From Escherichia coli (lineage in GTDB: Bacteria; Pseudomonadota; Gammaproteobacteria; Enterobacterales; Enterobacteriaceae): DNA of 64,000 bases. The notes beneath the pieces are model-generated. The model did not search any database and had not been told where the DNA came from. It saw nothing but the letters and a program-made list of their open reading frames with translations. A program made the position numbers and the translations under genes. Shown here one piece after another: positions 14,507-64,000 of this stretch (positions are counted from its first letter, which is position 1; each line of letters starts with the position of its first letter). Location of the stretch: assembly GCF_044324785.1 (NCBI RefSeq), contig NZ_CP172127.1, one strand, 5' to 3'.

Positions 14507-14548
14507 TTTATTCTACAGGCCCACAGCAAGAGAGCCTGATAGTAACAG

Positions 14549-18261: not shown

Positions 18262-18378
18262 CTCCCTTCCGCAACCCATTAACCCTTGAAGTCACAGTCT
18301 ATTTCAGGCATTTCTCAACTCAAAATAACGAAGGCCAATGTGAACTTTGTGGCTCTCCAGGATCCGCTTTGTTTTCCA
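18262..18378 (+). repeat. diverged partial copy of the oxyS 3' half including a terminator-like hairpin
   Basis: ttaacccttgaagtcac identical to oxyS; the following ~80 nt are about 80 percent identical (tttctcaactcaaaataacgaaggccaatgtgaactttgtggctctccaggatccgctttgtttt versus oxyS tttctcaactcgaataactaaagccaacgtgaacttttgcggatctccaggatccgctttttttt). Confidence 0.8.
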
Positions 18379-19857
18379 TCAAACAACGGAACTCAGCGCA
18401 CTGGCAACCTGTTTAAAGCGAGCAAACCGTCGCCTGAGCATGTGTGCTTTTTCTACATTCGGTTCAAGACGAATCACGTTGAGATGCGTGGCCTTCATGG
18501 CCTGTTTGAATCCAGAATAAGCCCCTCCTCCTACTGCCGCACACATTGCAGCCGCTCTACAACCTGACTGTTCAATATCGACAATTTCAAGAGGCATGTT
18601 GCTGGCATCACAAAACATCTGCATCCAGATTCTGGAATGCGTTGGCCCGCCAGAGAAACGAATCGTTTGCAATGACTTATCAATCTCAATAAGACGGTCC
18701 TGATGCAACAAATGAGAAAAGACAATGCCCTGATAAATCGCGTACACCAAATCTTCTCTTTTATGATGCCCACACAGCCCCAAAAATCCCCCGCTTAATG
18801 CCTCATGGTAATTCGAGCCAAACAACCACGGGAAAAAGAGAATATCATTCTGCTTCTCATACCCTCGTTCCACCCACTCATTAATCACCCGATAGCTGTC
18901 AGGAAGATCCGGTAAAAATTGCTGCAAGAACCATGTCAAATTACTGGCTGATGTAGGGCTTCCCTCATGGGCGAAAAATGTACCTGGAATGCTAAATTTC
19001 CCCCATACATAGGGATAATCAGAAGGAATAATGCGATCAAAGATACGCGTTGCAATTGACCAGGTGCCAGCAACCGCACTTAACGTTGTACTGTCATAGA
19101 TGCCAGAAGTGAGCGCCGCACCAACGACATCAAAAACACCACCAAAAACAGGCGTTCCGGCGAGAAGCCCACATTGGCTGGCTGCTTCAGATGTCACAAC
19201 CCCTGCTAAATCAGCGGAGCCAATAATATCGGGAACCTTACCCGCAACTTCCTTAATCTCAAATAGGCGAAAAAGTTCAGCATCATAAGCACTGGTATAT
19301 TGATTATAAAAATTACTGCCTGAAATATTGGTTTCTTCACAAGCCAGTTTGCCAGTAAGCCGTGAACGTATGTAATCATGAACCATCAAAATGGTTCCGA
19401 TGCGGCCATAATTGTCAGTCTCATGTTTTTTCAACCAATGCAATAGTGCTACAGGGTGCGATGGCCAGAGCTGTTGCAGACTACGGTGATAGCTTTCGCG
19501 GTCAATTCCTTGTTCTTTCCAGCTTGCAACCAGTTGTTGTGCGCGAGAATCAGAGGAAACAATGCCGTATCGTAAGGGCTTACCTTGCCGGTCGAGCAGG
19601 TACAAACCTTTACCATGAGCAGAAAAACTGATGCCATCAATCTGACTCGCAGTAATATTGTTCTCTGACATCGACAGTGAAATGACCTGGCACGTTACCT
19701 TCCATAACGCCTCCATGTCGCGTTCGCAAAAACCAGGACATGGGCTTAACAGAGGTAACACTTGCGAAGAGACACCTATTTCACGTCCTTCTGCCGTATA
19801 AATTCCCGCTTTGGTTTCTGTACCACCTAAATCGACACCAATAAAATACCGCTCCAT
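18379..19857 (-). CDS. FGGY-family carbohydrate kinase (xylulokinase/L-xylulokinase-like)
   Basis: 492 aa; MERYFIGVDLGGTETKAGIYTAEG N-terminal actin-fold kinase motif; last gene of the minus-strand operon. Confidence 0.82.
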   Translation of the reverse strand: MERYFIGVDLGGTETKAGIYTAEGREIGVSSQVLPLLSPCPGFCERDMEALWKVTCQVISLSMSENNITASQIDGISFSAHGKGLYLLDRQGKPLRYGIVSSDSRAQQLVASWKEQGIDRESYHRSLQQLWPSHPVALLHWLKKHETDNYGRIGTILMVHDYIRSRLTGKLACEETNISGSNFYNQYTSAYDAELFRLFEIKEVAGKVPDIIGSADLAGVVTSEAASQCGLLAGTPVFGGVFDVVGAALTSGIYDSTTLSAVAGTWSIATRIFDRIIPSDYPYVWGKFSIPGTFFAHEGSPTSASNLTWFLQQFLPDLPDSYRVINEWVERGYEKQNDILFFPWLFGSNYHEALSGGFLGLCGHHKREDLVYAIYQGIVFSHLLHQDRLIEIDKSLQTIRFSGGPTHSRIWMQMFCDASNMPLEIVDIEQSGCRAAAMCAAVGGGAYSGFKQAMKATHLNVIRLEPNVEKAHMLRRRFARFKQVASALSSVV

Positions 19858-19873
19858 GATCCCTCCTTAGTTT

Positions 19874-20737
19874 CTAAATATTATCCCAGCCGGCAAGGCG
19901 CATTTTCTCTTCAATCCATTGACGTGCATGAATAATTTCTAATAGAGGTTCCGTCGCTTTTTCTGTCCACATTTCTATCAGAAACGTTCCGCGATAATTA
20001 AGATTACGCAGAATCTTAAATAATTTAATAAAATCTACACACCCTTCACCAAAAGGAACGTCACGAAATTGCCCTGGAGAATCAGGCGTTACTGGGTACG
20101 TATCTTTAAGATGGATTGCGGCAATTCGATCAATCCCCTTTACCAGCTCACTTTCCAGTTCATTACCCCATGCGGTCAGATTGCCAACATCCGGATAAAC
20201 GGTAAACCAAGGGGAATTAATTTTTGTATCCAGGACTTTCCATTTACTAATAGAATTAATAAATGGCGTATCCATGATTTCTACAGCACACATAACTTGT
20301 GCCGCTGCGGCCTGTTCAGCTGTCCAGGCCATCGCATCTTCAAACCAGGCGATAGTTTCTTCATTCTGCGGCTCATAATAAACGTCATAGCCTGCCAGTT
20401 GGATTGTTCGAATCCCCAAATCCTGCGCCAGGCGTAACGCCTTCAACATAATCGTACGCGCCTGCTGACGAGTATCTCTATCATGGCTACCAAATGGAAA
20501 ACGCCGGTGAGCAGACAGGCACATTGTCGGAATACGGATCCCCGTTTGCTGAATGGCGCTAATAAGCTCCATACGCTCGGTGAGCGACCAGTCCAGGCGG
20601 GCGAGTCGTTCATCATTCTCATCTACCGACATCTCAACAAAATCAAAACCGCAAGATTTAGCCAGGGCTAGTTTCTCTACCCAACTGGTATTCCTGGGTA
20701 GCGCTTTTTCATAAATACCTAACGGGTGGCGTCGCAT
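19874..20737 (-). CDS. sugar-phosphate 3-epimerase, TIM-barrel (L-xylulose/L-ribulose-5-phosphate 3-epimerase UlaE/SgbU-like)
   Basis: 287 aa; LGIYEKALP...GFDFVEMSVDE.DERLARLDWS...CLSAHRRFPFGS...IQLAGYDVYYE...PDVGNL...FGEG.VDF motifs shared with UlaE/SgbU. Confidence 0.85.
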   Translation of the reverse strand: MRRHPLGIYEKALPRNTSWVEKLALAKSCGFDFVEMSVDENDERLARLDWSLTERMELISAIQQTGIRIPTMCLSAHRRFPFGSHDRDTRQQARTIMLKALRLAQDLGIRTIQLAGYDVYYEPQNEETIAWFEDAMAWTAEQAAAAQVMCAVEIMDTPFINSISKWKVLDTKINSPWFTVYPDVGNLTAWGNELESELVKGIDRIAAIHLKDTYPVTPDSPGQFRDVPFGEGCVDFIKLFKILRNLNYRGTFLIEMWTEKATEPLLEIIHARQWIEEKMRLAGWDNI

Positions 20738-21813
20738 TATTTTCCCTCACGAGTGATCAATTGTTGTTGAAAGATTTTCCGGCTCTTATTCATGTCACGC
20801 TGCAACTGCCATTTTTGTTTGATGAATTTAAATGCCAATGCGGCGATCAATGTGATCCCCCATACCGCCAGATTGAAATGCAAACTAATTCCCAACAGAC
20901 TAAGGCCGGTAGCAATAACCTGAAGCACAAGTAAGGCACAAAAAACATGACTGACTTTACCCGCCCCACCGAATGGATCTGTGCCTCCCAATACAATTGC
21001 AAGAACCGTCAAGAGCAAATAGGAATCGCCATAGCCCATACGCGCCGAATTAAATCGCGCGAGCATAATAAGACCTGCTAATACACACAACATGCTGGAT
21101 ATAGCATATATAGCAATTAATACGCGGTCGGTGCGAATACCGCTAAACCATGTGGCGTTAATATTACTGCCACACATATAAATCGTTTTTCCCGTACGGG
21201 TTTTGCCGAGGAACAGAGCTAAAGCAACGGTGGTGACGATAAAAATCATCATCGGTACTGGGATCCCCATGATAACTTCAGACCCAATACTGCGGACTAC
21301 TGGTGGCATACCACTTAAAGCTGCCCCCTTAGTCAGGTAAATACCGATACCACTAATAATGGTCATGCTACCCAATGTGACCAAAATAGGGTGAGCGCCT
21401 ATATGAGAAATAATTAACCCAGTAATAGCTCCAATGATGATGGCAATAAGCATCGCCCCGACAATAGCCAGGAAGAGCCAAAACAACTGGCTACCTGTAG
21501 ATGCATCTGCGGGTACATATTGAATCAACACCCAGGCCATAAACAGGCTGGTCAGATTCGCAGTACCGATGATTGCCAGATTAAGCCCCCCGCTCAACAT
21601 CGGTATAAACATCGCAAACGTGAGCAACCCAAGCTCTGGCAATTGAAATGCAATGCTCAGAAAAGTATTGTCGGTGAAAAAACGCCCCGGCATTGCCAGA
21701 CTAAATAACACCACCGCAATAAAACATATTGATAATAAGCCTGAACTGGTACCATCTAGTGGAAAAAATATCCGCTTGTTCATTTCGATCCTCCCGTTAG
21801 ACGAAACCAACAT
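20737..21813 (-). CDS. sugar ABC transporter permease (CUT2/RbsC-like)
   Basis: 358 aa, multi-pass membrane protein, in operon with the ATPase and binding protein. Confidence 0.8.
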   Translation of the reverse strand: MLVSSNGRIEMNKRIFFPLDGTSSGLLSICFIAVVLFSLAMPGRFFTDNTFLSIAFQLPELGLLTFAMFIPMLSGGLNLAIIGTANLTSLFMAWVLIQYVPADASTGSQLFWLFLAIVGAMLIAIIIGAITGLIISHIGAHPILVTLGSMTIISGIGIYLTKGAALSGMPPVVRSIGSEVIMGIPVPMMIFIVTTVALALFLGKTRTGKTIYMCGSNINATWFSGIRTDRVLIAIYAISSMLCVLAGLIMLARFNSARMGYGDSYLLLTVLAIVLGGTDPFGGAGKVSHVFCALLVLQVIATGLSLLGISLHFNLAVWGITLIAALAFKFIKQKWQLQRDMNKSRKIFQQQLITREGK

Positions 21814-22789
21814 CAGTTTCTTTACGCTTTTTGTAATGGGTCACACAAATCGCCGAGACAATAACCACCCCAATAACGATATTGACGAAATAACTCGAGA
21901 CACCAATCAAATTAAGGCCGTTTTTAAGAATACCGATAAGAAATACGCCCATAAGCGTACCAATGACCGTACCACGTCCGCCTGATAAACTGGCACCGCC
22001 CAATACCGCTGCAGCCAGCACATCCAACTCTCCGCCAACCAATGCATTCGGCACAACTTCACTCATACGGTAAGCTTGCAGCATTCCACCAATTGCTGCA
22101 GCGGCACCAAGATAACCGTAAGCAAACAGATAAATTAGCGACACCCGAATCCCAATACGTCTTGCTGATTCGGTATTCCCTCCCACGGCATAAAGCTGAC
22201 GCCCAATATGGGTTTTGTTCATTATCACCCACGTCAGAAATGCCATTCCCAGCATAACCACTAACGGTAATCCGATCTGGTAATCTTCTCCGCCAAATTC
22301 AAAACTCAGGAAAGAACGCTGCGTAATCCACCAATCCGGTAAATCGTAAATACTGTGACCATTAGTCAACCACATCAACATACCGAACAGTAACGACTGC
22401 ATACTAATCGTAATGATGATAGAAACGACATTAAGGTAATAAATAAGAATAGCGTTTATCAAACCAAAAATGATGCCAAAAAAAACAGCAAACACCAGGC
22501 AGAAAAATGGATTTGATAGCGTTTCATTAAGCAGTAACGACGCCACAACATATTGCACAACCGAAGCTACTGCTGCAAAAGAGATATCAATTCCGCCAGT
22601 AACCAATACGACAAATAATCCGAGGGCGAAAATACCCGTTACGGCATAACTCTCCGAGAGATCGAGCAAGTTCTGTATTGATAAAAACTCATCGCTCATG
22701 ATGGAAAAAAATACCAGCATGAGAACAATGACCCATCCTAACCAAGCTTCGACTGAACGAGGAAACCGCAGCCGCATAAAGCTAACCAT
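21797..22789 (-). CDS. sugar ABC transporter permease (CUT2/RbsC-like)
   Basis: 330 aa hydrophobic multi-pass protein; overlaps neighbouring genes by a few codons (translational coupling). Confidence 0.8.
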   Translation of the reverse strand: MVSFMRLRFPRSVEAWLGWVIVLMLVFFSIMSDEFLSIQNLLDLSESYAVTGIFALGLFVVLVTGGIDISFAAVASVVQYVVASLLLNETLSNPFFCLVFAVFFGIIFGLINAILIYYLNVVSIIITISMQSLLFGMLMWLTNGHSIYDLPDWWITQRSFLSFEFGGEDYQIGLPLVVMLGMAFLTWVIMNKTHIGRQLYAVGGNTESARRIGIRVSLIYLFAYGYLGAAAAIGGMLQAYRMSEVVPNALVGGELDVLAAAVLGGASLSGGRGTVIGTLMGVFLIGILKNGLNLIGVSSYFVNIVIGVVIVSAICVTHYKKRKETDVGFV

Positions 22790-24299
22790 TAATCACCTCC
22801 GCCAACTGCTGCTCGGTATAATTCGAAGGCAACAGCTCATGAATAATCTTTCCGCGCTTCATATGAAAAATACGATCGCAGTTATAATAAGCTTCTGGTG
22901 CTTCATCAGTAATTAATATCACTGAAATACCCACACCTGAAAGCCGATGAATAAGCTGGTAAATACTATCTTTTGCGCCAATATCTACACCTACCGTTGG
23001 CGCATCCAGAATTAAAACCTTAGGTCGTGTTAAAATCCATTTAGCCAGGACAACCTTTTGTTGATTGCCACCAGATAGCGTTGAAAGTGGATTATTTGGA
23101 TCGGTGACCTTAATATCCAAATCCTGGATCCACTCCTTGACTAAGGTTTCTTTTCGATTTTCATCAATAAACCCCGATGGCGTCTTTAAACGATCCAGAA
23201 TCGAGAGCACCATATTATCGCTGATAGATTGGGGTAATACGGCCCCCAGTGTCAGGCGATCTTCTGAAACATATGCTATTCCCAGTTTTACCGCATGCGT
23301 GTTGTCTTTAATTGTAACGGGCTTACCTTCAAGATAAATATCACCACTATCTGCTCGAGTAATACCGAAAAGACTCAATGCTAATTCGGTTCTCCCCGCA
23401 CCAAGTAAACCACACAATCCCAGAACCTCGCCTTGGTGTAGTTTTAGAGATACATCTTCAAATTGCCCTTTTCTGCATAATTTTTTTAGTTCAAGAACTA
23501 CTTTACCTTCAACGCTATTTGGTAGTTTTTTCTGGTGGACTATAGTTTTTCCGGTCATTAACTCAGTAATATCGCCTGGAGAAAGTTGATTGGCAGCCCA
23601 CGTTCCAATTATCTCTCCATCACGGATGACCGTAATTCGGTCTGAGATTTCCTTAACTTCATCAAGGCGGTGGCTAACAAAAACTACGGTAATATTTTTA
23701 TCGCGTAAGTAATTCACTGTGCGTAGTAATTGATTAACTTCAGTGCGCGTCAATGACGCCGTTGGCTCGTCCATGATGACTAACCGGGCATCGGCAATCA
23801 GAGCCCGGCAAATAGCGACCTGTTGGCGTTGTGCAATCGGCAAATGTTGTACTAACGCATCAGGATCGAGATTGAATTCCAGTTCCTGAATTATTTTCTG
23901 TGATACATCTCGAAGTTGTTTTTTTCTGTGCAGCCCTAAATATCCCTTCAGGTTGTATTCAAAAGCGATATTTTCAGCCACAGAAAGATTTGGGAATAAA
24001 GAAAGATCCTGATATATCACCTGAATACCCAGTTCCCGAGCTTTATCAGGAGAAAGACGAGTCCAGGACTTACCATCTATAATAATTTCACTTCCCGAAT
24101 CAGGAACATAAACACCACACAGCGTTTTGATCAGAGTACTTTTACCACACCCATTCGCACCAGCAAGACAATGAACCTCACCTTTATTTAAGGTAAGATT
24201 GATATTTTTTAGAGCCCTATGGCCACCGAAACTTTTCGTTAGTGACCTTAGCGTCACTAATGGTTGCTCCGCATTCTTCTCTATAATATGAGGCATCAT
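22782..24299 (-). CDS. sugar ABC transporter ATP-binding protein with two fused ABC domains (RbsA/MglA/AraG type)
   Basis: 505 aa; Walker A GANGCGKST in domain 1, second P-loop GLLGAGRTE, ABC signature LSGGNQQK. Confidence 0.88.
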   Translation of the reverse strand: MMPHIIEKNAEQPLVTLRSLTKSFGGHRALKNINLTLNKGEVHCLAGANGCGKSTLIKTLCGVYVPDSGSEIIIDGKSWTRLSPDKARELGIQVIYQDLSLFPNLSVAENIAFEYNLKGYLGLHRKKQLRDVSQKIIQELEFNLDPDALVQHLPIAQRQQVAICRALIADARLVIMDEPTASLTRTEVNQLLRTVNYLRDKNITVVFVSHRLDEVKEISDRITVIRDGEIIGTWAANQLSPGDITELMTGKTIVHQKKLPNSVEGKVVLELKKLCRKGQFEDVSLKLHQGEVLGLCGLLGAGRTELALSLFGITRADSGDIYLEGKPVTIKDNTHAVKLGIAYVSEDRLTLGAVLPQSISDNMVLSILDRLKTPSGFIDENRKETLVKEWIQDLDIKVTDPNNPLSTLSGGNQQKVVLAKWILTRPKVLILDAPTVGVDIGAKDSIYQLIHRLSGVGISVILITDEAPEAYYNCDRIFHMKRGKIIHELLPSNYTEQQLAEVING

Positions 24300-24362
24300 A
24301 ATATTCCTGAATACGACTAAAGGAATTCCGGGTCAAATTTGACCCGGTGATTTACGGTAAAA

Positions 24363-25367
24363 TTACAAGCCTAACTTCACTAAATGTCGTGTATTTTCAA
24401 GATCGAGCTTTTCTGGATTATCACTATAAATAGTGTTGTTATTAACCTTGATCTCGCCCATATCACCGATTTTTACACCGTCTTTAATAGGTTCACCGTT
24501 CATCATTGCCGTCGCAACCTGGACAAAAACCTTACCCGCAATCATAGGGTTTGAAATATATCCCCCATCAATGGCGCCTTTTTCGAGTAGCTTAATTCCC
24601 TGACCTGGAGTGAAGGTTCCAAAAACGCAAATTGCGTCATTTTTCTTCCGCTTATCAATAGCACGCCCCGCACCAATTGGTCCTTGTGAACCAAATGACA
24701 TAATGCCTTTAAGATCTTTATATTTAGACATTAAATCGTTCGTCGTGCGCATTGAATCATCCACCGATTCAGCAACACCAAAACGATCTTCAACCAACGT
24801 CATATTTGGATAATGTTCTTTTTGATAAGCAATCGCGGCATTGGCCCAGTCATTTACCAAAGGCACGGTCAGACTGCCGACAAACATGGCGTATTTACCT
24901 TCTTCGCCCATGCACTTCGCCATATCTTTCATATGATTGGCACCCATTGTCTGGGTATTTAACAACTCAAAATCCCAATCTGCATTTTTTTGATCTGGTG
25001 ATTCGTGGGTAATAACTTTAATACCGGCTTCTTGTGCACGCTTAAGTACAGGTTCAAGAACCTTTGCATCGTTAGGAACAACCCCAATAACATCCACTTT
25101 TCGTGCAATTAAATCTTCAATCGCCCGAACCTGTTCAGCTGGATCTGCCGTTGTAGGGCCGACCTGCCATGCATCAACCCCCAATAGTTTTCCTTCATCT
25201 TTAATGCCTTGTTCCATCACATTAAACCAGGGAATGCCACCGACTTTTACTACTACCCCCATCGTAAAAGGTTTATTCGCTTTTTGTGATGTTACAGTCT
25301 GATCAGCCCATGCAGCAGTGGAAGATAATACGGTAGCAATAAGGCAGGGTAAGATTAATTTTTTCAT
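24363..25367 (-). CDS. periplasmic sugar-binding protein of ABC transporter (RbsB/LsrB-like)
   Basis: 334 aa with N-terminal signal peptide MKKLILPCLIATVLSSTAAWA; first gene of operon. Confidence 0.82.
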   Translation of the reverse strand: MKKLILPCLIATVLSSTAAWADQTVTSQKANKPFTMGVVVKVGGIPWFNVMEQGIKDEGKLLGVDAWQVGPTTADPAEQVRAIEDLIARKVDVIGVVPNDAKVLEPVLKRAQEAGIKVITHESPDQKNADWDFELLNTQTMGANHMKDMAKCMGEEGKYAMFVGSLTVPLVNDWANAAIAYQKEHYPNMTLVEDRFGVAESVDDSMRTTNDLMSKYKDLKGIMSFGSQGPIGAGRAIDKRKKNDAICVFGTFTPGQGIKLLEKGAIDGGYISNPMIAGKVFVQVATAMMNGEPIKDGVKIGDMGEIKVNNNTIYSDNPEKLDLENTRHLVKLGL

Positions 25368-25489
25368 CGTAATTTCCTTAAGAAATAGTTCAGGTGTCAG
25401 GAAAACTCGATATAATATCGACCTGACTATTTATATAATTTATAATCCCTTAGGCATTGATTAATAATTTAGACAATAAATAATGCCTA

Positions 25490-26299
25490 TTATTTATCAA
25501 CCTCCACAATGTTTAATTGTGGAAATTGTGTTCGATACCGAGTATCTGTACAAACATTAGTCACCAGAATATCGATTTCATCCAGCGTGCATATTTTACT
25601 AAATGCATACTGTTCAAACTTACTGGAGTCGACCAGCAATATTTTTTGTCCTGACACCTGAAGCATCACCTGTTTAAGTCTGGCATTAATTTCACTGCCA
25701 TCGCGGACACCATTCCCCAGATTCAACCCCTGGCATGAAAAGAAAAAACTGTTGATTTGAAAATTTCGGATCGCCCCCTCTGCAACCGGGCCATGAAAAT
25801 CATCATGTCGCTCAGAATACTCACCACCGATACCAATAATTCGAACTCGATCACGGCAAGCCAACGCCTGAATTATCCGTAATGAATTTGTAACTACAGT
25901 AACATCTATATCGGGAATTTGACGAGCTAAAAACCAACAAGTACTACTGTTATCCATTAAAATACAATCACCAGGGTGAATAAATTGCAATGCGGCCTTC
26001 GCAATTCTGGCTTTTATATCAGGATTTTCTTCAGTCCGTTTACGGAATGATTCCGCACGATCGATACTATTATCTTGCCACGCATTATCGGCGAGCATAA
26101 CCGGAGCGCTATCAGATGAATCCAGAGCGACCGCGCCACCAAAGCTACGGATTAACTTTTTGTTGCGCTCCAGTACCGTTAAATCCCGACGAATTGTCTC
26201 AGGAGACGCTTTAAATAATCGTGATAATTCTGTTACCTGTACAGCACCTTGTTTTTGTACATGTGCGCATATCATTTTATGGCGCTCTGCCTGCAACAT
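25490..26299 (-). CDS. DeoR-family transcriptional regulator
   Basis: 269 aa; N-terminal HTH (VTELSRLFKASPETIRRDL) and C-terminal DeoR sugar-phosphate-binding domain; upstream of the ABC operon on the same strand. Confidence 0.85.
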   Translation of the reverse strand: MLQAERHKMICAHVQKQGAVQVTELSRLFKASPETIRRDLTVLERNKKLIRSFGGAVALDSSDSAPVMLADNAWQDNSIDRAESFRKRTEENPDIKARIAKAALQFIHPGDCILMDNSSTCWFLARQIPDIDVTVVTNSLRIIQALACRDRVRIIGIGGEYSERHDDFHGPVAEGAIRNFQINSFFFSCQGLNLGNGVRDGSEINARLKQVMLQVSGQKILLVDSSKFEQYAFSKICTLDEIDILVTNVCTDTRYRTQFPQLNIVEVDK

Positions 26300-26752
26300 A
26301 GTATCGGTCCGTTATTATCAAATTAGCATGCTTATATAATTAACTGTTCCCTCATAAAATAAAGTGATAGGAATCAAGATTCATTTTATAAATATAATCG
26401 CAAACAGAAATGGTGATCTTTACCACAAATTAAATTGAGAATATTCTACTATTGGACATTTTTTTGAGATATACGTCACTAAATAAGCTTTATTCTGTCA
26501 CCTGACGAAAAATTTAAATGCAAAAACAAAAATAATCGGGCATAGCAATCTCTTCCATTCATGACCGAATACGCCCGAATAAAACCGTTTACGCCCACTT
26601 ACCCTCTTTCATTGCCTTCTTACATGCCTTGAATATTTTACATTTCTTATATTCAGCGTAATTTAGGCAACATAATTTACGAGCAAAAATAGCCAAAACC
26701 CAAAAGTTAAAGTTTATTTATATAATACATACAGATTATCGTGGAGTTAAAA

Positions 26753-27435
26753 ATGGATACGCTAAAGGAAAAAGTTCTTGCTGCGAATTTATCACTACCC
26801 CTTCATCAGTTAGTGACGTTTACCTGGGGAAATGTTAGCGGTATTGATCGCGAAAAAGGTGTCATGGTTATTAAACCTTCTGGGGTCGAATACAGCCAAA
26901 TGGGCAGGTGGTAGTGGATTTACAAAGTGGTGAAGTTATTGATGGACACAGGAAACCCTCTTCAGACACAGATACTCATCTGGCGCTATACCGTGCTTTC
27001 CCGGATATTGGAGGTATCGTTCATACCCATTCCCGACACGCCACAATATGGGCTCAGGCCGGAAAAGATCTCACGGCCTTTGGGACAACCCATGCAGATT
27101 ATTTCTACGGCACTATCCCCTGTACACGCCCCATGAAGGATGACGAAATTAATGGACAATATGAATATGAAACGGGGCGAGTGATTATTGAAACGTTCAG
27201 GCAACGAGAAATATCTCCCGCTGACATTCCGGCTGTTTTAGTAAACAGTCATGGCCCCTTTGCCTGGGGAACTGATCCCGCGAACGCCGTGCATAACGCC
27301 GTTGTACTTGAAGAAATCGCCTATATGAATCTCTTTACACAACAGCTACACCCCCATCTTACGGCTATTCAACAGCCTCTACTGGATAAGCATTTTTTAC
27401 GCAAGCATGGTGCCAATGCTTATTACGGGCAGTAA
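26753..27435 (+). pseudogene. L-ribulose-5-phosphate 4-epimerase (AraD/SgbE/UlaF-like), frameshifted near codon 50
   Basis: ATG at 26753 with GGAG RBS gives [53 protein letters not shown] then stop at 26912; +1 frame continues [52 protein letters not shown]...HGANAYYGQ, strongly AraD-like. Confidence 0.8.
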
Positions 27436-27484
27436 CCCTCTAAGCATGGCCTGGCGTTTTGCCAGGCCACGAATCGCCCAGGAC

Positions 27485-32012: not shown

Positions 32013-32039
32013 AAAAGCAAATCAGGCTGATGACAAAGC

Positions 32040-32105
32040 CATGCAAGCGCACGGACAGTCCCCTCGCCCCTTCGGGGAGAGGGTTAGGGTGAGGGGAAAA
32101 CCGTG
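32040..32105. repeat. intergenic palindromic repeat containing motif ggggagagggttagggtgagggg
   Basis: gtcccctcgccccttcggggagagggttagggtgagggg; the same motif occurs in inverse orientation at 47672-47694. Confidence 0.6.
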
Positions 32106-32423
32106 CCCATACTGACCCGTAAGCGAGTTTGTCAGCAATCTCAAATGATGCCCAAATGGTAACTACAACTCATAACTCTTTGGTGTTAATTGAGGCGATT
32201 TTTTAACATTCCCATAAGTTACGCTTATTTAAAGCGTCGTGAATTTAATGGCGTAAATTCCTGCTATTTATTCGTTTGCTGAAGCGATTTCGCAGCATTT
32301 GACGTCATCGCTTTTACGTGGCTTTATAAAAGACGACGAAAAGCAAAGCCCGAGCATATTCGCGCCAATGCGACGTGAAGGATACAGGGCTATCAAACGA
32401 TAAGATGGGGTGTCTGGGGTAAT

Positions 32424-36991: not shown

Positions 36992-37061
36992 ATGACCTTT
37001 GTATCGCGTCTGGCGCTATTTGCCGGATGCGATACTGTCACAATGTTTACATCGAACTCCC

Positions 37062-47529: not shown

Positions 47530-47710
47530 CTCCAAACTCCCGGCTTGTCCGGGAGTTTGAGAGTGCAGGCAAAGTGGCTCACTCGTCACTGCGGGCATGT
47601 TTTTCCCCCTCGCCCTTTCAGGGAGAGGTGCGGGGTGAGGGTAAATATTCGCCCCGGAGCTGGCCTGTTCCCCTCACCCTAACCCTCTCCCCAAAGGGGA
47701 GAGGGGACTG
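47530..47710. repeat. cluster of intergenic palindromic repeat units (REP-like)
   Basis: Nested palindromes ctccaaactcccggcttgtccgggagtttgag and cccctcaccctaaccctctccccaaaggggagagggg; the latter is the inverse of the motif at 32072-32094. Confidence 0.65.
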
Positions 47711-47855
47711 TTCGAGCACTTTTTATACGTTATCACCCGTCTGAAACTCCCACGTTGTTCAGGAATTTTTTATCCGCTTCTGGACATTTTCTCTACAGAA
47801 CAATCGTTAGCCCGGTAGGTCGAATCTGTGACTCTTATTTTCACGGACGAACCAG

Positions 47856-52980: not shown

Positions 52981-53279
52981 AAAGCTAAAGGGCGTCAACC
53001 GAAAAATGACCAATGATAGTGAGGAAAAATCAGGGAAGATGAAAAAAACTCATCTTAATTAGAGGCGATAAGAGATTTCTCTATAGCGCAATCCATCTCG
53101 CACGTTTTGACTAATATTCTGACAACACAGCGACACCTGGGCTAATTCGAAAAACAACCTCCTGCCACCGGATGGTGATGCTAAGGCATCTGATTCGGCC
53201 TGCGCTCTCACGTAGGCCGAATAATGGATCTGCAAAATCAACTGGTAGCAAACAGATGAATCAACTTAATACATACTTT

Positions 53280-54833
53280 TTACTTGATATCCTTCACACG
53301 CATACCGTTGATCTGTTCATCCGTGATGGTATTGCCCGCTTTGAAGTAATCAACCACGGCGTGATAAACGTAATAACCGCCCGTTGTGTTACGCGCTCTC
53401 CCTTCGGTGAAGGCGCTAAAACCATCGCCACCATCAGCAAGGAAACTCTGAGTAGCAATGTGGTAAACCGTCGCATCTTCAATGGGTTTGCCATTCAGAG
53501 TCAGCGAGATAACCCGCTGACCAACCGGCTTACTGCTGTCGTACTTCATTTCCAGGCCTTTCGATACCTGTAAAACGCCATTACTTAAACTTGCGCCGTG
53601 TTCCATCAAACTGCGTAATTGTTTACCCGTGAGATCCATCGTCACCAGTTCGTTGGGGAACGGGAAGGTACTGATGACGCCGCCCATCGTAATCGCCCCT
53701 GCGGGGATCTCATTGCGAATACCGCCAGAGTTGGTTAAAGCCAATTGAGTGTTTTTACCCGCCGCTACCAGTAAAGCGTCCGCCGCCAGGTTCCCCAGGG
53801 ATGCCGATTCACCATAGGCACGTTTTAATTCAACCGGCGATTTCGCGACCGTTTGTTGCACCACTTCATCAAGCTTTTTATTCCAGCCGTCGATCACCTG
53901 TTTCGTTTGCGGATCGGGCTTCCACTCGTCGGCGTAAATGGTTTTAAGCTCGAAGTTTTTCACCGTAAAATCATGCGGCTTCTCTTTGTAGTCGAGAACC
54001 AGTTTGCCCACATCAATCCCGCCACTGTCAGTGGAAAGGATGAGCGTATTGCCGACTTTAATCGGTTCCGGCGTACCCACATGTGCATGTCCGGTGATCA
54101 AAATATCCAGCCCTTTCACCTGACTTGCCGTCTGAATATCTTTATCCAGTGCGCGACGCACATCAGTCCCTCCCATACTGGACTGGCGGGCCGGAACACC
54201 TTCGTGGATCAGGGCGACGGTCAAATCAACCTTGCCTTTGAGTTCATCGATATAACGTTGTAGCCATTTAATTTCATCACGCGCTTCAATACCCACTCGC
54301 GTGGCAGCAGATACTGTGTCATTAAAGGCAAATACACCGTGCAAACCTATAACGCCTATTTTCACACCGTCTTTTTCGATGATGGTATAGGGCTTATCCC
54401 AGAATGATTTACTGCTGTTCTGATAAAAAACATTGCCCTGCACAATCGGGAATTTTGCCTGACTCAACTGTAATAATGTGTTGTCCCAGCCGTGGTCAAA
54501 TTCATGGTTACCCATCGTGACAGCATCGAATGGCATGGTATTCATAATATCGATAATAGCCTTGCCTTTGGTCAGGCTGCTGATATATGGCCCGGTAAAA
54601 TAGTCGCCCGCATCAAAAAACCATGTCGCCTTATTTTTTGCTTTTTCTTGCTTAACCAGCGTAGTGATATTTGCCCAGCCGCCAATATCCCGTTTACCGT
54701 CCGCAATCCACGGCACTTTATAAGGCTCTACATGTGCATGGAGGTCGTTGGTATAAATAATGGTGACATCTTTAGCGCAAGCCCAGAATGGCAGTGTTAA
54801 TGCGATACCCGCAGCAAGTATTTTAATTTTCAT
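53280..54833 (-). CDS. secreted bifunctional metallophosphatase / 5'-nucleotidase family protein (UshA/CpdB-like)
   Basis: 517 aa; signal peptide [20 protein letters not shown]; calcineurin-like phosphoesterase motifs (TNDLHAH, GDYFTG, MGNHEFD, GHAH) plus a C-terminal 5'-nucleotidase substrate-binding domain. Confidence 0.85.
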
Positions 54834-54892
54834 AAACAGTCCCTTTCAGTGAGATAAAGGATTGCTACATTACGTTCTGAAAGAGTTATTTA

Positions 54893-54908
54893 TGTGAGAG
54901 TAATCACA
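54893..54908. promoter_or_regulatory. perfect consensus CRP (cAMP receptor protein) binding site in divergent promoter region
   Basis: TGTGAgagtaaTCACA: both consensus half-sites with 6-bp spacer, roughly 60 bp from each of the two divergent start codons. Confidence 0.7.
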
Positions 54909-54965
54909 TCCACAGGGGAGCGTTGCCGGACAAAATCAACGACCATGTGAAATCGTTGGTGATAT

Positions 54966-56096
54966 ATGTCGACTCTGTTTACGATTAATGCCTGCAAGTC
55001 GTTTGGTTGCCGTAATTTAGGGCAGCCAACATCGACAGATTATAGCTGGCCCGACTATCGACTGGGTTATCCGGCACTGCACTGTCGGGCATGTGGCAGT
55101 TACCCGCCGTTGTTTGACGAGCAACAATTTCGTGACTGGTTGACAGTTCACTTATCTACTTTTGCAACAGAGAAAGGCCATTTTTGCCCGGTATGTTATG
55201 GTACAGATACGATTTGTTATGGTCACAATCCACAGGGTTCGCAACGCATTCAATGCCGTAACTGCAAAAAAGTATGGACACCCAAACAATATCAGAAAGA
55301 AATAACGACTCCCGAAATAATCGAAACGGTTGCTTTTCTCGTGCCATTTCAGGGAGTCAGCAGCGGGCAGAAACTGTATGTTTTAATCAGTTTTGATGCT
55401 CTTCGCGGTAATATTCTTCATCTTTCTACTAATTACACGCAGCATCAGGCTGGAGAAAGTCTGCATTATCGATACAGAGGGAATGCAGAACCAGAGTTAC
55501 ACGAGAGTAATATTGTACAACGCGTTGATATGCGGGAAGCACAATTTCTACGCCGCAGTCAGTTTGATGAAATTCAGTATGGCAGCGCAGCGCTCAAACG
55601 CAATGCTAAAGGTGTTATTCTGCGTCCGGTTATCACTGCACACGGGCATTTCAGAGTACTGAATATTTTATTCCCTACAGTAAAAACACATGTAATTTCA
55701 CACGAGTGTTTTTTAAGAGGTGCCATTATTACGGCATGGGCTGATCTGTTTCGCCAACAGCAAGGTGAGATTTGGTTTATTGAAGAGGAAATAGCTGACG
55801 ATACCGATAATATGCCCTGGAGTTTTCAGGGAACAACTTATCACGGCTGGTGGAAAAATCAGTGGCAACTTTGGGGTCAGGGCAAAAATCGTAAAATGGT
55901 ATGTGCATTAACGGGCGGAAAGAGTAGCAAAGCAGAAATGCTCTCTTTAGCAACCAGCAGACATTTTATCGACTGGCTACATAAACAAGCAGTATTTACT
56001 CACAGCACCCCGCTTTCCGCAGGGCGCGTTACGCAAATACTGCTTTCTCTGGCTCAGGATTACAACAACTGCGCCAGGCGGTTAATATCCGACTGA
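54966..56096 (+). CDS. hypothetical Cys-rich protein (N-terminal paired C-x4-C / C-x2-C zinc-ribbon-like motifs)
   Basis: 376 aa ORF; N-terminus contains C..x4..C, C..x2..C, C..x2..C, C..x2..C pairs (ACKSFGC, CRAC, CPVC, CRNC); no signal peptide; 3' end overlaps convergent metL stop by 37 bp; function not recognisable. Confidence 0.6.
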   Translation: MSTLFTINACKSFGCRNLGQPTSTDYSWPDYRLGYPALHCRACGSYPPLFDEQQFRDWLTVHLSTFATEKGHFCPVCYGTDTICYGHNPQGSQRIQCRNCKKVWTPKQYQKEITTPEIIETVAFLVPFQGVSSGQKLYVLISFDALRGNILHLSTNYTQHQAGESLHYRYRGNAEPELHESNIVQRVDMREAQFLRRSQFDEIQYGSAALKRNAKGVILRPVITAHGHFRVLNILFPTVKTHVISHECFLRGAIITAWADLFRQQQGEIWFIEEEIADDTDNMPWSFQGTTYHGWWKNQWQLWGQGKNRKMVCALTGGKSSKAEMLSLATSRHFIDWLHKQAVFTHSTPLSAGRVTQILLSLAQDYNNCARRLISD

Positions 56097-60917: not shown

Positions 60918-61003
60918 TGGATGATAAAAAAATAATTCCCGCCGTAGTCTGTTTGTTGCTTTGTAGTTGCACGACCTTTCCGCAAGCTGTCGCTCCGGTA
61001 AAC

Positions 61004-61766
61004 GGTGATGCCTCCAATTAGTTGAATTAAGGATATAATACTCGCTTCTAAGGTTGTTTCATGGTCACAGTTAACCTTCATTGTCCCCGTTGCCAGTCCG
61101 TTTAGGTTTACCGTCACGGGCAGAACCCCAAAAGACATGATCGATTCCGCGGCCGTGACTGTCACCGGGTATTTCAGCTCAGTTACTGTTACGAGCCCCG
61201 TAAACCGGGAGTTAAAGACCAAATCGCTGAAATGGCTTTCAACGGTGCCGGGGTTCGCTATACTGCCCGTACGCTGAAAATCGGCATTAATACAGTCATC
61301 CGAACTTTAAAAAACTCTCGCCACGAAGAATAACGTCATCCCCGGTCGCTCATGCTGATGTGGCACTCAACTGCGAACTTAGTCAGCAATGGAGCTTTGT
61401 CGGCAGTAAAGCGCGACAGCACTGGCTCTGGTACGTGTACAACACGAAAACTGGTGGTGTTCTGGCCTACACTTTTGGCCCCCGGACTGATGAAACCTGT
61501 CGTGAATTGCTGGCGCTGCTTACCCTTTTACCATCGGCATGTTGACCACTGACGAATGGGGTAGTTACACCAGAGAGTTACCAAAGGAGAAGCATCTGAC
61601 TGGTAAGATTTTTACTCAGCACATTGAGCGTAACAATCTGACCCTGAGAACCCGAATCAAACGTCTGGCCCGCAGAACCATCTATTTCTCGCGTTCTGTA
61701 GAACTTCATGAAAAAGTCATCGGTGCTTTTATCGAAAATATATGTTCTACTGATTGGAGTCATCAC
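61004..61766 (+). mobile_element. degenerate IS1-family element (frameshifted insA and insB, no target duplication)
   Basis: IS1-like terminal repeats ggtgatgcctccaattagttgaatt (left) and ...ctactgattggagtcatcac (right); InsA-like reading MVTVNLHCPRCQSV*, then in another frame ...AEMAFNGAGVRYTARTLKIGINTVIRTLKNS; InsB-like segments ...QQWSFVGSKARQHWLWYVYNTKTGGVLAYTFGPRTDETC... and ...TDEWGSYTRELPKEKHLTGKIFTQHIERNNLTLRTRIKRLARRTIYFSRSVELHEKVIG in different frames. Confidence 0.8.
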
Positions 61767-61866
61767 TCTTCTGATGAGCTTTCCTTGGATGATTACCAGA
61801 CTGAATACACAGCCAAAGATTTTTACCTCATTCTGCTCTTTTTTCTCAAATGACATATATTATATT

Positions 61867-62145
61867 TTACATCATATTCATAGGCATATGACATTCCCCC
61901 GCCCCCATTATGTCATTGTGGGTTGATGTTGGGCTTTCATAAAAAAATACATCTTTTTTTGAACTAGCATTAATTATATTTACTTTATACATTAAAATAT
62001 TTTCTCCATCTGGAAATATTTTAGCCACACAATATAAAGCAGCTAAATCCGAATTACTTAAAAATATATTGTCATCACTCATAACTCCAGCCATTAAATG
62101 ACTGGAGACTAAAGCAAGGAAATAACAACATTGTATTGCCTTCAT
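61867..62145 (-). CDS. small secreted protein, candidate immunity protein for the adjacent Rhs C-terminal toxin
   Basis: ATG for MKAIQCCYFLALVSSHLMAG... preceded by a GGGAG RBS; hydrophobic N-terminus; AT-rich; starts 60 bp downstream of the Rhs fragment stop on the same strand. Confidence 0.6.
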   Translation of the reverse strand: MKAIQCCYFLALVSSHLMAGVMSDDNIFLSNSDLAALYCVAKIFPDGENILMYKVNIINASSKKDVFFYESPTSTHNDIMGAGECHMPMNMM

Positions 62146-62205
62146 TTTAATTACTCCCTTGCCTGATAATTGTAACTCCATTCCCTTTAGCTTTGGGATT
62201 ATATT

Positions 62206-63564
62206 TTAGATAGGTGTTATTTGGTGTTCCCAAGTAACTACTGTATTCTTTTTTTCCATTCCATTCATATAAGAATTCGTTAAATCTTTGCTTGAAAAAT
62301 TTAGACTATCATAAACATCATTTTCTTTTGTTACTTTATTTCCTTTATCGTCAGAGTAAAAACCGTGAGTGTGATAATCGCCTACTCTCTCTGAACCTTC
62401 AGGGCGTTTTATATTTCGCAAGTCTACACTATCATTATCATTTGAACTTATCGGATTCATGGGGGAATATTCACCTTGCTTCTTACATATTAGTCCACCA
62501 TATTCTTTATTCTCGTTAATTGATTCTCCATTACACATTGCCAATGCAAATATTCCAATATCATCTATATTTTTTGATTTAAATTCATATAATCCTAATG
62601 GATCCATGCCATTCACCGGGCTCAGCGGATATGTATACAGGTTCCATCCCCCCTTCAGCCCAATCGGATCCTGAGTGATATACCGCCCCTGCAGCGGGTC
62701 ATAATAGCGGTGGCGGTTGTAATACAGGCCGGACTCCTCATCATACTGCTGCCCCGGCAGGCGGATGAGCTGCTGCAGTTGATGCGGGTTCTCTTCATTC
62801 AGCAGATTGCCCCACTCATCGTATTCTGCGCACCATTCTGTTGCCCCTTCCGTGCTGACAAGCGCCAGCGGCAGGCCGCGATGGTCGCAGTGGTACAGGT
62901 GGATTTTTCGCGCCGGCGTGTACACCGGGTCCATCTGGTTTTGCATCTGCTCCACCGTCAGGCCGCACGATGCCAGCCAGCGGCGGCTTTCCTCACTCAC
63001 CCGGTCAGCCAGGATTTCACTTTCCAGCCGGTCGAGCATCTGCACCAGCACCGGCGGGAACACCACACTGCCACCGTCTTCACCGCCGGACTGCTGAAGC
63101 GCATCCGCCAGGCTGCGGCGCTGCGTTTTCGCCAGCTCACCGGTGGCGGTTTCGACCCTGATGAGTGGCGTGAAGCTCCCCGGCTGATAAACCGTCTGGA
63201 TGCGGGTTCTGTCGTTCTGTATCGTGGTCAGCCGGTCGCCGTCCCAGCCGTACCAGGTCACTTCCGGTTTCCGTGACAGCGACATCCAGCCCGTCAGGTC
63301 CCGTTCACGCCGCCACACCCGTTTTGCCACCCTGCGGCCCAGCGGGTCGTAAAGATAGCGACTTTCGACCAGCGGCTCTGCATATTGTGTCCGCGTGTAG
63401 TGCACCAGCCGGTGCTGACTGTCGTAATGGTACCGGTGAGTCCGCTCATCATCCGTGCGGATAACCCCTTCCGGGATGAGGTCGGTTTTCTCTGTCAGCC
63501 TGCCGTGACGGTCATACCGGTAAAGATAGTGCGCGTCACGGGCGATACGGTTATCCGGCCACAT
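62206..63564 (-). CDS. orphan Rhs-family C-terminal fragment: conserved Rhs core end (to DPLGL) fused to a 127-aa variable C-terminal toxin domain
   Basis: Translation ...[14 protein letters not shown]...[15 protein letters not shown]...[17 protein letters not shown]...[45 protein letters not shown] then the AT-rich divergent tail [14 protein letters not shown]...[12 protein letters not shown]...; Rhs-like reading frame extends upstream to about 63650 without an obvious start, and the long N-terminal Rhs body is absent. Confidence 0.82.
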
Positions 63565-63678
63565 GCTGAGGGTGCTGTCCGGGTGCAGCTCCGGGTCGGG
63601 CAGGCGGTTGCCTGCCGGGTCCGTGGCATACGGGATATCAATGCCCAGGTTACATATAATAAGAGCAATTAACTTAAT

Positions 63679-63936
63679 TTATTTGTTTATAATGCGCTTA
63701 CTTAATACAAACCATTGAATATACCCTCCTGACAGAAAATAAAGCCATGTTATTATCGCCATAATATACTTACTATCAATCCTTACGCCAATAATGTCTG
63801 AAACAGTCCCTATAAATATTAGAGCAATAAAGAATACTATGCCTGTTGGAAAACATATTACCATCATTCCATAAGACATGAGACTAATTAACTCGCTCAC
63901 ATCACGAGTGGAGTCTAATAGTGAAAGTCTATGCAT
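63679..63936 (-). CDS. small hydrophobic protein (two predicted TM helices), possible immunity protein of an upstream toxin module
   Basis: 85-aa ORF MHRLSLLDSTRDVSELISLMSYGMMVICFPTGIVFFIALIFIGTVSDIIGV...; AT-rich; directly upstream of the Rhs fragment on the same strand; close to window edge. Confidence 0.4.
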   Translation of the reverse strand: MHRLSLLDSTRDVSELISLMSYGMMVICFPTGIVFFIALIFIGTVSDIIGVRIDSKYIMAIITWLYFLSGGYIQWFVLSKRIINK

Positions 63937-64000
63937 GGAAAAGAATAGTATTAAAAGCGATAAAGCCAGCCATGTAGCTCTGAATAAAAAAATAATACAT

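What the first reader, a model, noticed from the sequence alone, without database searches (positions are those of the whole stretch)
47575..47710. The same palindromic motif appears in opposite orientation in two intergenic regions 15 kb apart
ggggagagggttagggtgagggg at 32072-32094 (argE-ppc spacer) and its reverse complement cccctcaccctaaccctctcccc at 47672-47694 (gldA-yijF spacer), both within larger nested palindromes. This is consistent with a dispersed REP/BIME-type element family rather than a gene-specific signal.
Basis: seen in the sequence. Interest (0 to 1): 0.2.

Follow-up and report, generated by a model that had tools for sequence, protein, structure and literature searches.

The report
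BoxC repeats, not REP elements
The motif is a copy of BoxC, a G/C-rich dispersed repeat of E. coli described since the 1990s (also published as PIT, TMECO and HPG1/HPG2); it is a known, non-gene-specific repeat with no demonstrated function, so the finding is ordinary.

Summary
The 23-mer GGGGAGAGGGTTAGGGTGAGGGG occurs exactly twice in the window, at 32074-32096 (+) and 47670-47692 (-), with none expected by chance.

It is not REP/BIME. It is BoxC, a three-block element, CCCTCNCCC-loop-GGGAGAGGG-TTA-GGGTGAGGG. The literature also calls it PIT, TMECO (Holder 2015) and HPG1 (Kaplan 2016, same 21-mer).

The flagged stretch 47575-47710 holds two BoxC units in inverted orientation. One is a degenerate type-B arm (47606-47644, +) and the other a perfect type-A arm (47668-47706, -). 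Together they form a known "A+B pair" inside a ~180-nt cassette. The argE-ppc copy is a solo type-A unit, and its cassette aligns with the composite over both tails.

A 49-nt BoxC query finds 85,237 places in 5,408 of 5,426 complete E. coli genomes (median 18 per genome). They are almost all chromosomal and essentially absent from phages.

Both sites are polymorphic. K-12 and most strains carry REP/BIME in exactly these slots. The BoxC alleles occur in 640 genomes (gldA-yijF) and 284 genomes (argE-ppc) of 5,425.

No function is established. The best reading is a structure-prone repeat (hairpin, triplex or G-quadruplex) that marks unstable intergenic spacers. Already known; low interest.

The parts
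47561..47739 (.). Composite BoxC cassette, the variable segment of the gldA-yijF spacer. K-12 has a REP-containing segment here instead.
   Evidence: Window-versus-K-12 blastn stops at 47560 and resumes at 47740; alignment. The cassette is paralogous to the K-12 ygfF-gcvP, fepB-entC, alx-sstT and hrpB-mrcB composites.
47606..47644 (+). Degenerate type-B BoxC arm. C block CCCTCGCCC 47607-47615, loop TTTCA, block 2 GGGAGAGGT 47621-47629 (1 mismatch), loop GCG, block 3 GGGTGAGGG 47633-47641.
   Evidence: (I1). Nearly identical to K-12 TMECO no. 10 (CCCTCGCCCTTTCAGGGAGAGGGCCGGGGTGAGGGT).
47645..47667 (.). 23-nt spacer between the two inverted arms (AATATTCGCCCCGGAGCTGGCCTG), conserved in the paralogous composites.
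47668..47706 (-). Perfect type-A BoxC arm. On the - strand it reads CCCTCTCCC (47705-47697), CTTTG, GGGAGAGGG (47691-47683), TTA, GGGTGAGGG (47679-47671).
   Evidence: The hairpin folds at -11.4 kcal/mol as DNA.
32015..32177 (+). Variable segment of the argE-ppc spacer, carrying a solo BoxC cassette (about 32026-32145). It replaces the 1-4 REP copies present in other E. coli.
   Evidence: It aligns with the reverse strand of the gldA-yijF composite over both tails, with a 65-nt internal gap equal to the spacer plus the B arm.
32061..32095 (+). Type-A BoxC core, 'mm' variant, with a G opposite an A in the hairpin: CCCTCGCCC CTTCG GGGAGAGGG TTA GGGTGAGGG.
47533..47559 (+). Perfect 11-bp hairpin directly after the gldA stop codon. 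It is not part of BoxC; it is the conserved left border of the variable slot.
   Evidence: I2. Present in K-12 and in Salmonella, where the stem differs by compensatory changes.
47744..47768 (+). Degenerate second copy of that hairpin, followed by a T run. It is the right border of the variable slot and a plausible terminator.
   Evidence: D1, 76% identity to 47534-47558. Present in both the BoxC and the REP alleles.

Best explanation
Both sites are copies of BoxC, a chromosomal, non-coding dispersed repeat of E. coli and its relatives. It has also been published as PIT, TMECO and HPG1/HPG2. Each unit is a C-rich block followed by two G-rich blocks. On a single strand the C block pairs with a G block to form a hairpin. 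The remaining G block can then lie in the groove as a purine-motif intrastrand triplex, or the G-rich half can fold as a G-quadruplex. The gldA-yijF interval holds a known composite of two units in inverted orientation (type B and type A). The argE-ppc site holds a solo type-A unit whose flanks are homologous to the composite's flanks. The element is not a gene-specific signal. It sits in the variable 3' spacer after argE and after gldA, where other strains carry REP/BIME. Shown here: the identity, the copy number, the anatomy and the allelic polymorphism. Taken from the literature: triplex, hairpin and G4 formation by oligonucleotides in vitro, and the association with variable loci. Inferred: BoxC has no dedicated cellular function. 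Its main effect is probably that its structure-prone DNA makes the host spacer liable to polymerase stalling, slippage and recombination. That would produce solo/composite conversions and allele replacement.
For: - **Pattern match.** Two sites fit the published TMECO definition exactly, with 0 expected by chance (definition).
- **HPG1 identity.** Both carry the exact 21-mer that Kaplan 2016 named HPG1.
- **Paired arrangement.** The inverted type A + type B pair has the same arm sequences and the same spacer as four K-12 pairs.
- **Copy number.** 85,237 places in 5,408 of 5,426 genomes, median 18, range 1-31, with only 52 on plasmids. Only 4 phage records match.
- **Solo versus composite.** The solo and composite cassettes align over both tails. 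The 65-nt difference is bounded by the direct repeats GGGTGAGGGG and GGGCGAGGGGG.
- **Polymorphism.** The BoxC allele is present in 640 of 5,425 genomes at gldA-yijF and in 284 of 5,425 at argE-ppc, with REP alleles elsewhere. At ygfF-gcvP the BoxC composite likewise alternates with a REP-bearing allele.
- **Folding.** The composite folds as a long hairpin, -28.7 kcal/mol as DNA, z = -4.2.
- **Literature.** Triplex formation shown by CD and NMR, with Tm 70-82 C. A K+/Mg2+-dependent G4/hairpin switch. TMECO loci are more variable than control loci. MutL-bound replication-error regions are enriched for the Kaplan G4 set, Z = 10.6.
Against: - In vivo DMS footprinting did not show triplex protection.
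- Oligonucleotides revert to duplex when the complementary strand is present.
- The instability link is correlative. Variable spacers could simply be where such repeats are tolerated.
- The three-block pattern is also abundant in very distant bacteria: 145 copies in the scanned part of Mitsuaria chitosanitabida and 13 in a Methylomirabilota MAG. That abundance could point to selection for a function.
- I did not test transcription or RNA effects.
Confidence: 0.82

Rival explanations
1. It is a REP/BIME (or RIB/RIP) element.
For: It is intergenic, palindromic and dispersed. It occupies exactly the slots that hold REP/BIME in K-12.
Against: The window has no match to REP consensus sequences at up to 3 mismatches, whereas the homologous K-12 50 kb has 10. 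The sequence instead fits the three-block BoxC pattern. BoxC and PU-BIME are catalogued as separate families.
Confidence: 0.01
2. BoxC is a MITE-like non-autonomous mobile element. In the composite, the two inverted arms act as terminal inverted repeats and are moved by a transposase supplied in trans. This concerns how BoxC spreads, so it is compatible with the best explanation.
For: A cassette of about 180 nt recurs at unrelated loci, with conserved spacer and tails beyond the cores. The arms are 39-nt inverted repeats. Presence differs between strains at sharply defined borders. Copy number per genome ranges from 1 to 31.
Against: No empty site was found at either locus, so target-site duplications cannot be read; the alternative allele always carries REP. 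The 25-nt direct repeat flanking the gldA-yijF slot is also present in the REP allele, so it is not an insertion scar. No transposase is known. BoxC is essentially absent from phages and true plasmids, and Holder reported the same.
Confidence: 0.2
3. BoxC is a functional cis-element of the neighbouring genes. It could be a 3'-UTR hairpin that stabilises argE and gldA mRNA as REP does, or a G-quadruplex/hairpin switch that modulates ppc or yijF transcription.
For: Both cassettes start within about 50 nt of a stop codon and would be transcribed in the sense orientation. They are predicted to fold into very stable RNA hairpins. They replace REP, which is known (my own knowledge) to stabilise upstream mRNA. 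Kaplan 2016 proposed a regulatory switch.
Against: There is no U-tract, so they are not intrinsic terminators. Hoyne and Maher found no promoter or terminator activity and no in vivo effect (as summarised). Neighbouring gene classes, distances and orientations show no pattern. Most E. coli lack BoxC at these two sites. The conserved ppc promoter region begins only at 32178, downstream of the cassette.
Confidence: 0.1
4. The two 23-mers are a chance or local coincidence.
For: None.
Against: No matches occurred in 100 shuffles, and the element is found at 85,237 places in E. coli genomes.
Confidence: 0

Closest known systems
BoxC repeat of E. coli (Bachellier et al., 1990s; listed at 56 bp and 32 copies in Petrillo et al. 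2008, PMC2267715)
   Same: Same sequence family, intergenic location and copy-number range. The conserved unit seen here, about AAAGnGCnCGGACAGT plus the three blocks plus GAA, is about 56 nt long.
   Different: Nothing essential. These two loci do not carry BoxC in K-12: Holder's Table 1 lists none between 4.07 and 4.31 Mb. They are therefore strain-variable BoxC loci.
TMECO / PIT intrastrand-triplex motif (Hoyne and Maher 2000, 2002; Holder et al. 2015, PMC4666352)
   Same: Two copies match the defining pattern exactly and are type A (TTA in loop 2). They include one inverted A+B pair of the kind found at 5 K-12 sites. The loci are variable between strains, as that paper reported.
   Different: The B arm at 47606-47644 breaks the pattern by one base (GGGAGAGGT) and has loop GCG instead of CCG. 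In Holder's terms it is a 'mutated TMECO'.
[quoted passage not shown] 2016, PMC5100583)
   Same: Both full copies contain the exact HPG1 21-mer GGGAGAGGGTTAGGGTGAGGG. They are the only canonical G4 motifs in the 64-kb window.
   Different: None. This is the same element described from the G4 viewpoint.
REP/BIME (PU) elements
   Same: Both are dispersed, palindromic and intergenic, often lie just after stop codons, and are polymorphic between strains. They occupy the very same slots in other strains.
   Different: The sequence is unrelated, there is no REP consensus, and the three-block G/C architecture replaces a single imperfect palindrome. No associated RAYT transposase is known for BoxC.

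Membership tests
BoxC / TMECO | Sequence pattern CCCTCNCCC N3-6 GGGNGAGGG N3 GGGNGAGGG (Holder 2015) | tested here: met
   Exact matches at 32061-32095 (+) and 47671-47705 (-), with 0 expected. The third unit, 47607-47641, misses by one base in block 2.
BoxC / TMECO | Many dispersed copies per E. coli genome, on the chromosome | tested here: met
   Median 18 places per genome (range 1-31) in 5,408 of 5,426 genomes; 85,185 of 85,237 places are on chromosomes.
BoxC / TMECO | Always intergenic | tested here: met
   All three units lie between annotated or predicted genes: argE/ppc and gldA/yijF.
BoxC / TMECO | Type A (loop 2 TTA) or type B (loop 2 CCG); inverted pairs always combine one A with one B | tested here: met
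   Two type-A units, plus a paired arm that is a B-type derivative, nearly identical to K-12 no. 10 apart from GGGCC to GGTGC.
BoxC / TMECO | The isolated strand folds as a purine-motif intrastrand triplex | not testable with these tools
   Only Watson-Crick folding can be computed here. CD and NMR evidence exists for near-identical oligonucleotides.
HPG1 G-quadruplex motif | The 21-mer GGGAGAGGGTTAGGGTGAGGG with at most 1 mismatch; four G-runs of at least 3 | tested here: met
REP/BIME | REP consensus palindrome (GCCGGATGCGGCG...CGCCTTATCCGGCCTAC and its variants) | tested here: not met
   0 matches in the window at up to 3 mismatches. The same probe finds 10 in the homologous K-12 50 kb.
Intrinsic (Rho-independent) terminator | G+C-rich hairpin followed directly by a U/T run | tested here: not met
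   No terminator-like site at any BoxC unit. The hairpins are followed by TTAGGG or AAAACC.
MITE | Terminal inverted repeats plus a target-site duplication, shown by an empty site | tested here: inconclusive
   Inverted arms are present. No empty allele was found at either locus, and the flanking direct repeat is shared with the REP allele.
Rfam RNA families | Match to a curated covariance model | tested here: not met
   The only hit at the gldA-yijF site (47619-47693) is mir-744, at 24 bits against a gathering score of 87, E = 0.94; none at the argE-ppc site.

The most novel reading that the evidence does not exclude
BoxC cassettes and REP/BIMEs may be alternative occupants of the same intergenic 'landing pads'. 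At all three loci examined (argE-ppc, gldA-yijF, ygfF/bglA-gcvP) one set of strains has BoxC and the other has REP, with identical borders. The window lineage carries no intact REP at any of the five sites that hold REPs in the homologous 50 kb of K-12. This could mean that BoxC is moved or exchanged by a REP-directed mechanism, or that some lineages are systematically replacing REPs. From memory, Bachellier et al. (Genetics 1997) already reported boxC insertions at BIME loci, so even this may be only an extension of known work.
Probability: 0.12. Interest if true: 0.45.

Novelty: already known. Interest (0 to 1): 0.1.

Why it matters
It matters little. The element has been catalogued under four names, and its structure has been studied in vitro. 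This check adds three things:

- It corrects the family label from REP/BIME to BoxC.
- It shows that the flagged interval is a two-unit composite, homologous over about 120 nt to the argE-ppc cassette.
- It provides a population-scale census over 5,426 complete genomes. The census shows both loci are minority alleles that alternate with REP/BIME.

The open question remains why a triplex/G4-prone repeat is kept at about 18 copies per genome, and how it spreads. This window does not make that question newly testable.

Tried and rejected
- **Rfam scan of 31-49 kb.** It found no meaningful family.
- **Genome-contig scan with the TMECO pattern.** It shows a wide taxonomic range but not a species census.
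- **Terminator and promoter scans.** Nothing was found at the BoxC units.
- **ORF listing in the spacer.** It returned only short mechanical ORFs (20-62 aa), which I did not analyse further.
- **Bachellier et al. 1997 (Genetics).** The paper is not held in the library, so the claim that boxC inserts at BIME loci rests on my memory.
- **Island abutting a truncated BoxC in GCA_053151395.1.** I tried to find its far end, but the CbtA look-up returned other loci only.
- **Outgroup look-ups through YijF homologues.** One was a gldA-deleted E. coli variant and one was a non-syntenic Escherichia alba locus. Only Salmonella was informative.
- **Empty alleles.** I looked for them at both loci to read target-site duplications, but none turned up in the spread samples.

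Full report
**Observation**

Reading the two sites and searching the window confirms the 23-mer GGGGAGAGGGTTAGGGTGAGGGG. It lies at 32074-32096 on the + strand and at 47670-47692 on the - strand. There is no third site within 3 mismatches, and none appeared in 100 dinucleotide-preserving shuffles. Both sites are intergenic. One lies between a 396-aa ORF ending at 32012 (argE) and an 883-aa ORF starting at 32424 (ppc). The other lies between gldA, ending at 47525, and yijF, starting at 47856. Gene names come from the RefSeq annotation of the matching E. coli records.

**Anatomy**

Each copy is more than a 23-mer. It has a C-rich block followed by two G-rich blocks: CCCTC(G/T)CCC - loop - GGGAGAGGG - TTA - GGGTGAGGG. 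The C block can pair with either G block.

The flagged interval 47575-47710 contains two units:
- a degenerate unit on the + strand (47606-47644; block 2 reads GGGAGAGGT);
- a perfect unit on the - strand (47668-47706).

Together they form a 39-nt inverted repeat, 77% complementary, with a 23-nt spacer. As single-stranded DNA the pair folds into one long hairpin of -28.7 kcal/mol, z = -4.2. The same hairpin appears in the RNA fold of the gldA 3' region. No unit is followed by a T run, so none looks like an intrinsic terminator. The two perfect units are the only canonical G-quadruplex motifs in the whole window.

**Identity**

A literature search led to Holder et al. 2015 (PMC4666352). They define 'TMECO' as CCCTCNCCC N3-6 GGGNGAGGG N3 GGGNGAGGG. 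They state that it is the element earlier called BoxC (1990s) and PIT (Hoyne and Maher 2000).

- Two window copies fit that pattern exactly, with none expected by chance.
- Both have TTA in loop 2, which makes them 'type A'.
- Holder et al. list 23 copies in K-12. At five sites a type-A and a type-B unit lie in inverted orientation.
- The gldA-yijF pair is such a composite. Its B arm is nearly identical to K-12 unit no. 10, and its A arm to no. 11.
- Kaplan et al. 2016 (PMC5100583) described the same sequence from the G-quadruplex side. Their HPG1 consensus is exactly GGGAGAGGGTTAGGGTGAGGG.
- Petrillo et al. 2008 list BoxC (56 bp, 32 copies) and PU-BIME as separate E. coli families.

So the element is already known under four names.

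**It is not REP/BIME**

Probes for REP consensus sequences find nothing in the 64-kb window at up to 3 mismatches. The same probe finds 10 matches, at five intergenic sites, in the homologous 50 kb of K-12. The REP/BIME label is therefore wrong. The broader idea of a dispersed repeat rather than a gene-specific signal is right.

A 49-nt BoxC query against 5,426 complete E. coli genomes gives the following:
- 85,237 places in 5,408 genomes;
- median 18 per genome, range 1-31;
- only 52 places on plasmids.

Only 4 of 50,697 phage records match. At least four of the top plasmid hits are 4.8-5.4-Mb records, the size of a whole chromosome, and other hits are on plasmids of several hundred kb; weaker matches occur on replicons of Klebsiella, Rhizobium, Sinorhizobium and Azospirillum.

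It nevertheless showed 145 copies in the scanned part of Mitsuaria chitosanitabida, 13 in a Methylomirabilota MAG, and a few in two other MAGs. Loops are lineage-specific. In Mitsuaria the third block is overwhelmingly GGGTGAGGG, although that position was free in the pattern.

**The repeated unit is larger than the core**

Aligning the window composite with the four head-to-head K-12 composites shows a conserved spacer and a conserved tail of about 45 nt beyond the type-A arm. The ygfF-gcvP composite also shares a left tail of about 50 nt.

The argE-ppc cassette (about 32026-32145) aligns with the reverse strand of the gldA-yijF cassette over both tails. There is a single 65-nt internal gap, which equals the spacer plus the B arm. 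That gap is bounded by the direct repeats GGGTGAGGGG and GGGCGAGGGGG. The solo and composite forms therefore look interconvertible by deletion or duplication between these repeats; this step is inference. K-12 solo units share about 15 nt upstream of the C block, giving a basic unit of about 56 nt.

**Both loci are strain-variable, and the alternative occupant is REP**

K-12 has no BoxC between 4.07 and 4.31 Mb.

- **gldA-yijF.** The K-12 sequence is identical to the window up to 47560 and from 47740 onward. In between it carries a REP-containing segment instead of the BoxC composite.
- **argE-ppc.** K-12, O157:H7, Nissle 1917 and BS-04 carry from one to about four REP copies in the slot where the window has the BoxC cassette, that is 32015-32177. 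The slot starts just after the argE stop codon. It ends where the conserved ppc upstream region begins.
- **Census.** The BoxC allele is present in 640 of 5,425 genomes at gldA-yijF and in 284 of 5,425 at argE-ppc. Some genomes have both, about 15.6 kb apart as in the window.
- **Third locus.** The K-12 ygfF-gcvP composite is present in 3,026 genomes. In the two genomes I read that lack it, ygfF is also absent and the bglA-gcvP spacer contains a REP-like palindrome.
- **Outgroup.** Salmonella has no BoxC in its gldA-yijF spacer. It has a degenerate REP-like sequence there, which suggests the REP-type occupant is the older state.

This fits Holder's finding that TMECO loci are unusually variable. 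It also fits my recollection that Bachellier et al. 1997 saw boxC insertions at BIME loci; that paper could not be retrieved.

**How it most likely works**

No function has been demonstrated.
- Hoyne and Maher found polymerase blockage in vitro. They found no promoter or terminator activity and no other effect in vivo (summarised).
- Holder et al. showed stable triplexes for isolated strands by CD and NMR. They saw no in vivo DMS protection, and the strands reverted to duplex when the complement was added.
- Kaplan et al. showed an ion-dependent G4/hairpin transition, again for isolated strands only.
- A 2024 study found that MutL-bound replication-error regions are enriched for the Kaplan G4 set, Z = 10.6.

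Putting this together, I commit to the following reading. BoxC is a non-coding repeat without a gene-specific role. Its single strands fold into very stable alternative structures. The likely consequence is local stalling, slippage and recombination. That in turn produces the observed solo/composite variants and allele turnover in spacers that tolerate such inserts.

How new copies arise is unresolved. A MITE-like mechanism is possible, but I found no empty sites from which to read target duplications. An mRNA-stabilising role like that of REP is conceivable, given the position just after stop codons. It is untested, and it is not required at these loci, since most strains lack BoxC there.

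**Verdict**

The element is already known, and interest is low.

Noticed in passing
whole window, versus L138 (NC_000913.3 4121500-4171499): The window has no match to the REP consensus at up to 3 mismatches, while the homologous K-12 50 kb has 10 matches at five spacers. In the window those five spacers hold a BoxC solo cassette (32015-32177), a half-REP vestige (about 37000-37034), a BoxC composite (47561-47739), a 3-kb insertion (53047-56059) and an empty site (about 60272). I did not test whether the lineage is REP-poor genome-wide.
   Followed up: partly
window 28000-52000: The best match among 5,426 complete RefSeq E. coli genomes is only 98.0% identical, though colinear in one piece. 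An exact 3.6-kb match exists in ENA assembly ERZ21883334, and near-exact matches in GCA_028598205.1 and GCA_044697405.1. Across this region the window is thus at least 2% diverged from every complete genome in the collection.
   Followed up: partly
L142 1100-1340 / L153 about 9834 (GCA_053151395.1), equivalent to window 47686|47687: In one public assembly a CP4-like island abuts yijF. It carries an IS-disrupted P4-type integrase, a YeeP-like GTPase, DUF932, an antirestriction protein, RadC and CbeA/CbtA. Its junction lies inside block 2 of the type-A BoxC arm, leaving only half of the element. The other end of the island was not found, so site-specific integration into BoxC cannot be told apart from a secondary rearrangement.
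   Followed up: partly
L155 18827-19807 (NZ_CP027390.1, strain 2015C-4944): An IS621 (IS110-family) transposase gene sits directly upstream of yijF, and the sequence beyond it is dppA rather than gldA. This is a large rearrangement with its breakpoint in this spacer. From my own knowledge, IS621 targets REP sequences.
   Followed up: no
window 47533-47559 and 47744-47768: A perfect 11-bp hairpin sits right after the gldA stop codon. A degenerate direct copy of it (76% identity), followed by a T run, lies at the other side of the variable slot. Both are present in BoxC and REP alleles. In Salmonella the first hairpin is kept through compensatory base changes. This, rather than BoxC, looks like the conserved gene-linked signal of the spacer.
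   Followed up: partly
window 14509-27484: A 13-kb segment is absent from K-12 between the oxyS/oxyR side and argH. It encodes a DeoR-family regulator, a sugar-type ABC transporter (binding protein, ATPase, two permeases), a xylose-isomerase-like TIM-barrel protein, an FGGY kinase, an enolase-superfamily protein and an MFS transporter. It looks like an ordinary accessory catabolic island.
   Followed up: partly
window 53047-56059 and 60918-64000: Two further segments have no K-12 counterpart in the compared region. The 3-kb insert between metF and metL encodes a 5'-nucleotidase/metallophosphoesterase (517 aa) and a 376-aa ORF. The stretch after yiiX (60918 onward) does not match K-12 rpmE/priA and was not examined.
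   Followed up: no
L006-L013 (Methylomirabilota MAG JACPAT01) and L014-L120 (Mitsuaria chitosanitabida): The same three-block motif is highly repeated in very distant bacteria, with lineage-specific loops and flanks. There are at least 145 copies in the scanned part of Mitsuaria, nearly all with loop 1 GCTTGC. In the Methylomirabilota MAG, inverted pairs have 29-31-nt gaps, the same geometry as the E. coli A+B pairs. Common descent, horizontal spread and convergence were not distinguished.
   Followed up: partly
L135 (frlR-yhfS) and L136 (pstB-pstA) of K-12: Two of the ten K-12 BoxC loci examined have a REP within 100 nt of the BoxC core. The two repeat families therefore also occur side by side, not only as alternatives.
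   Followed up: partly
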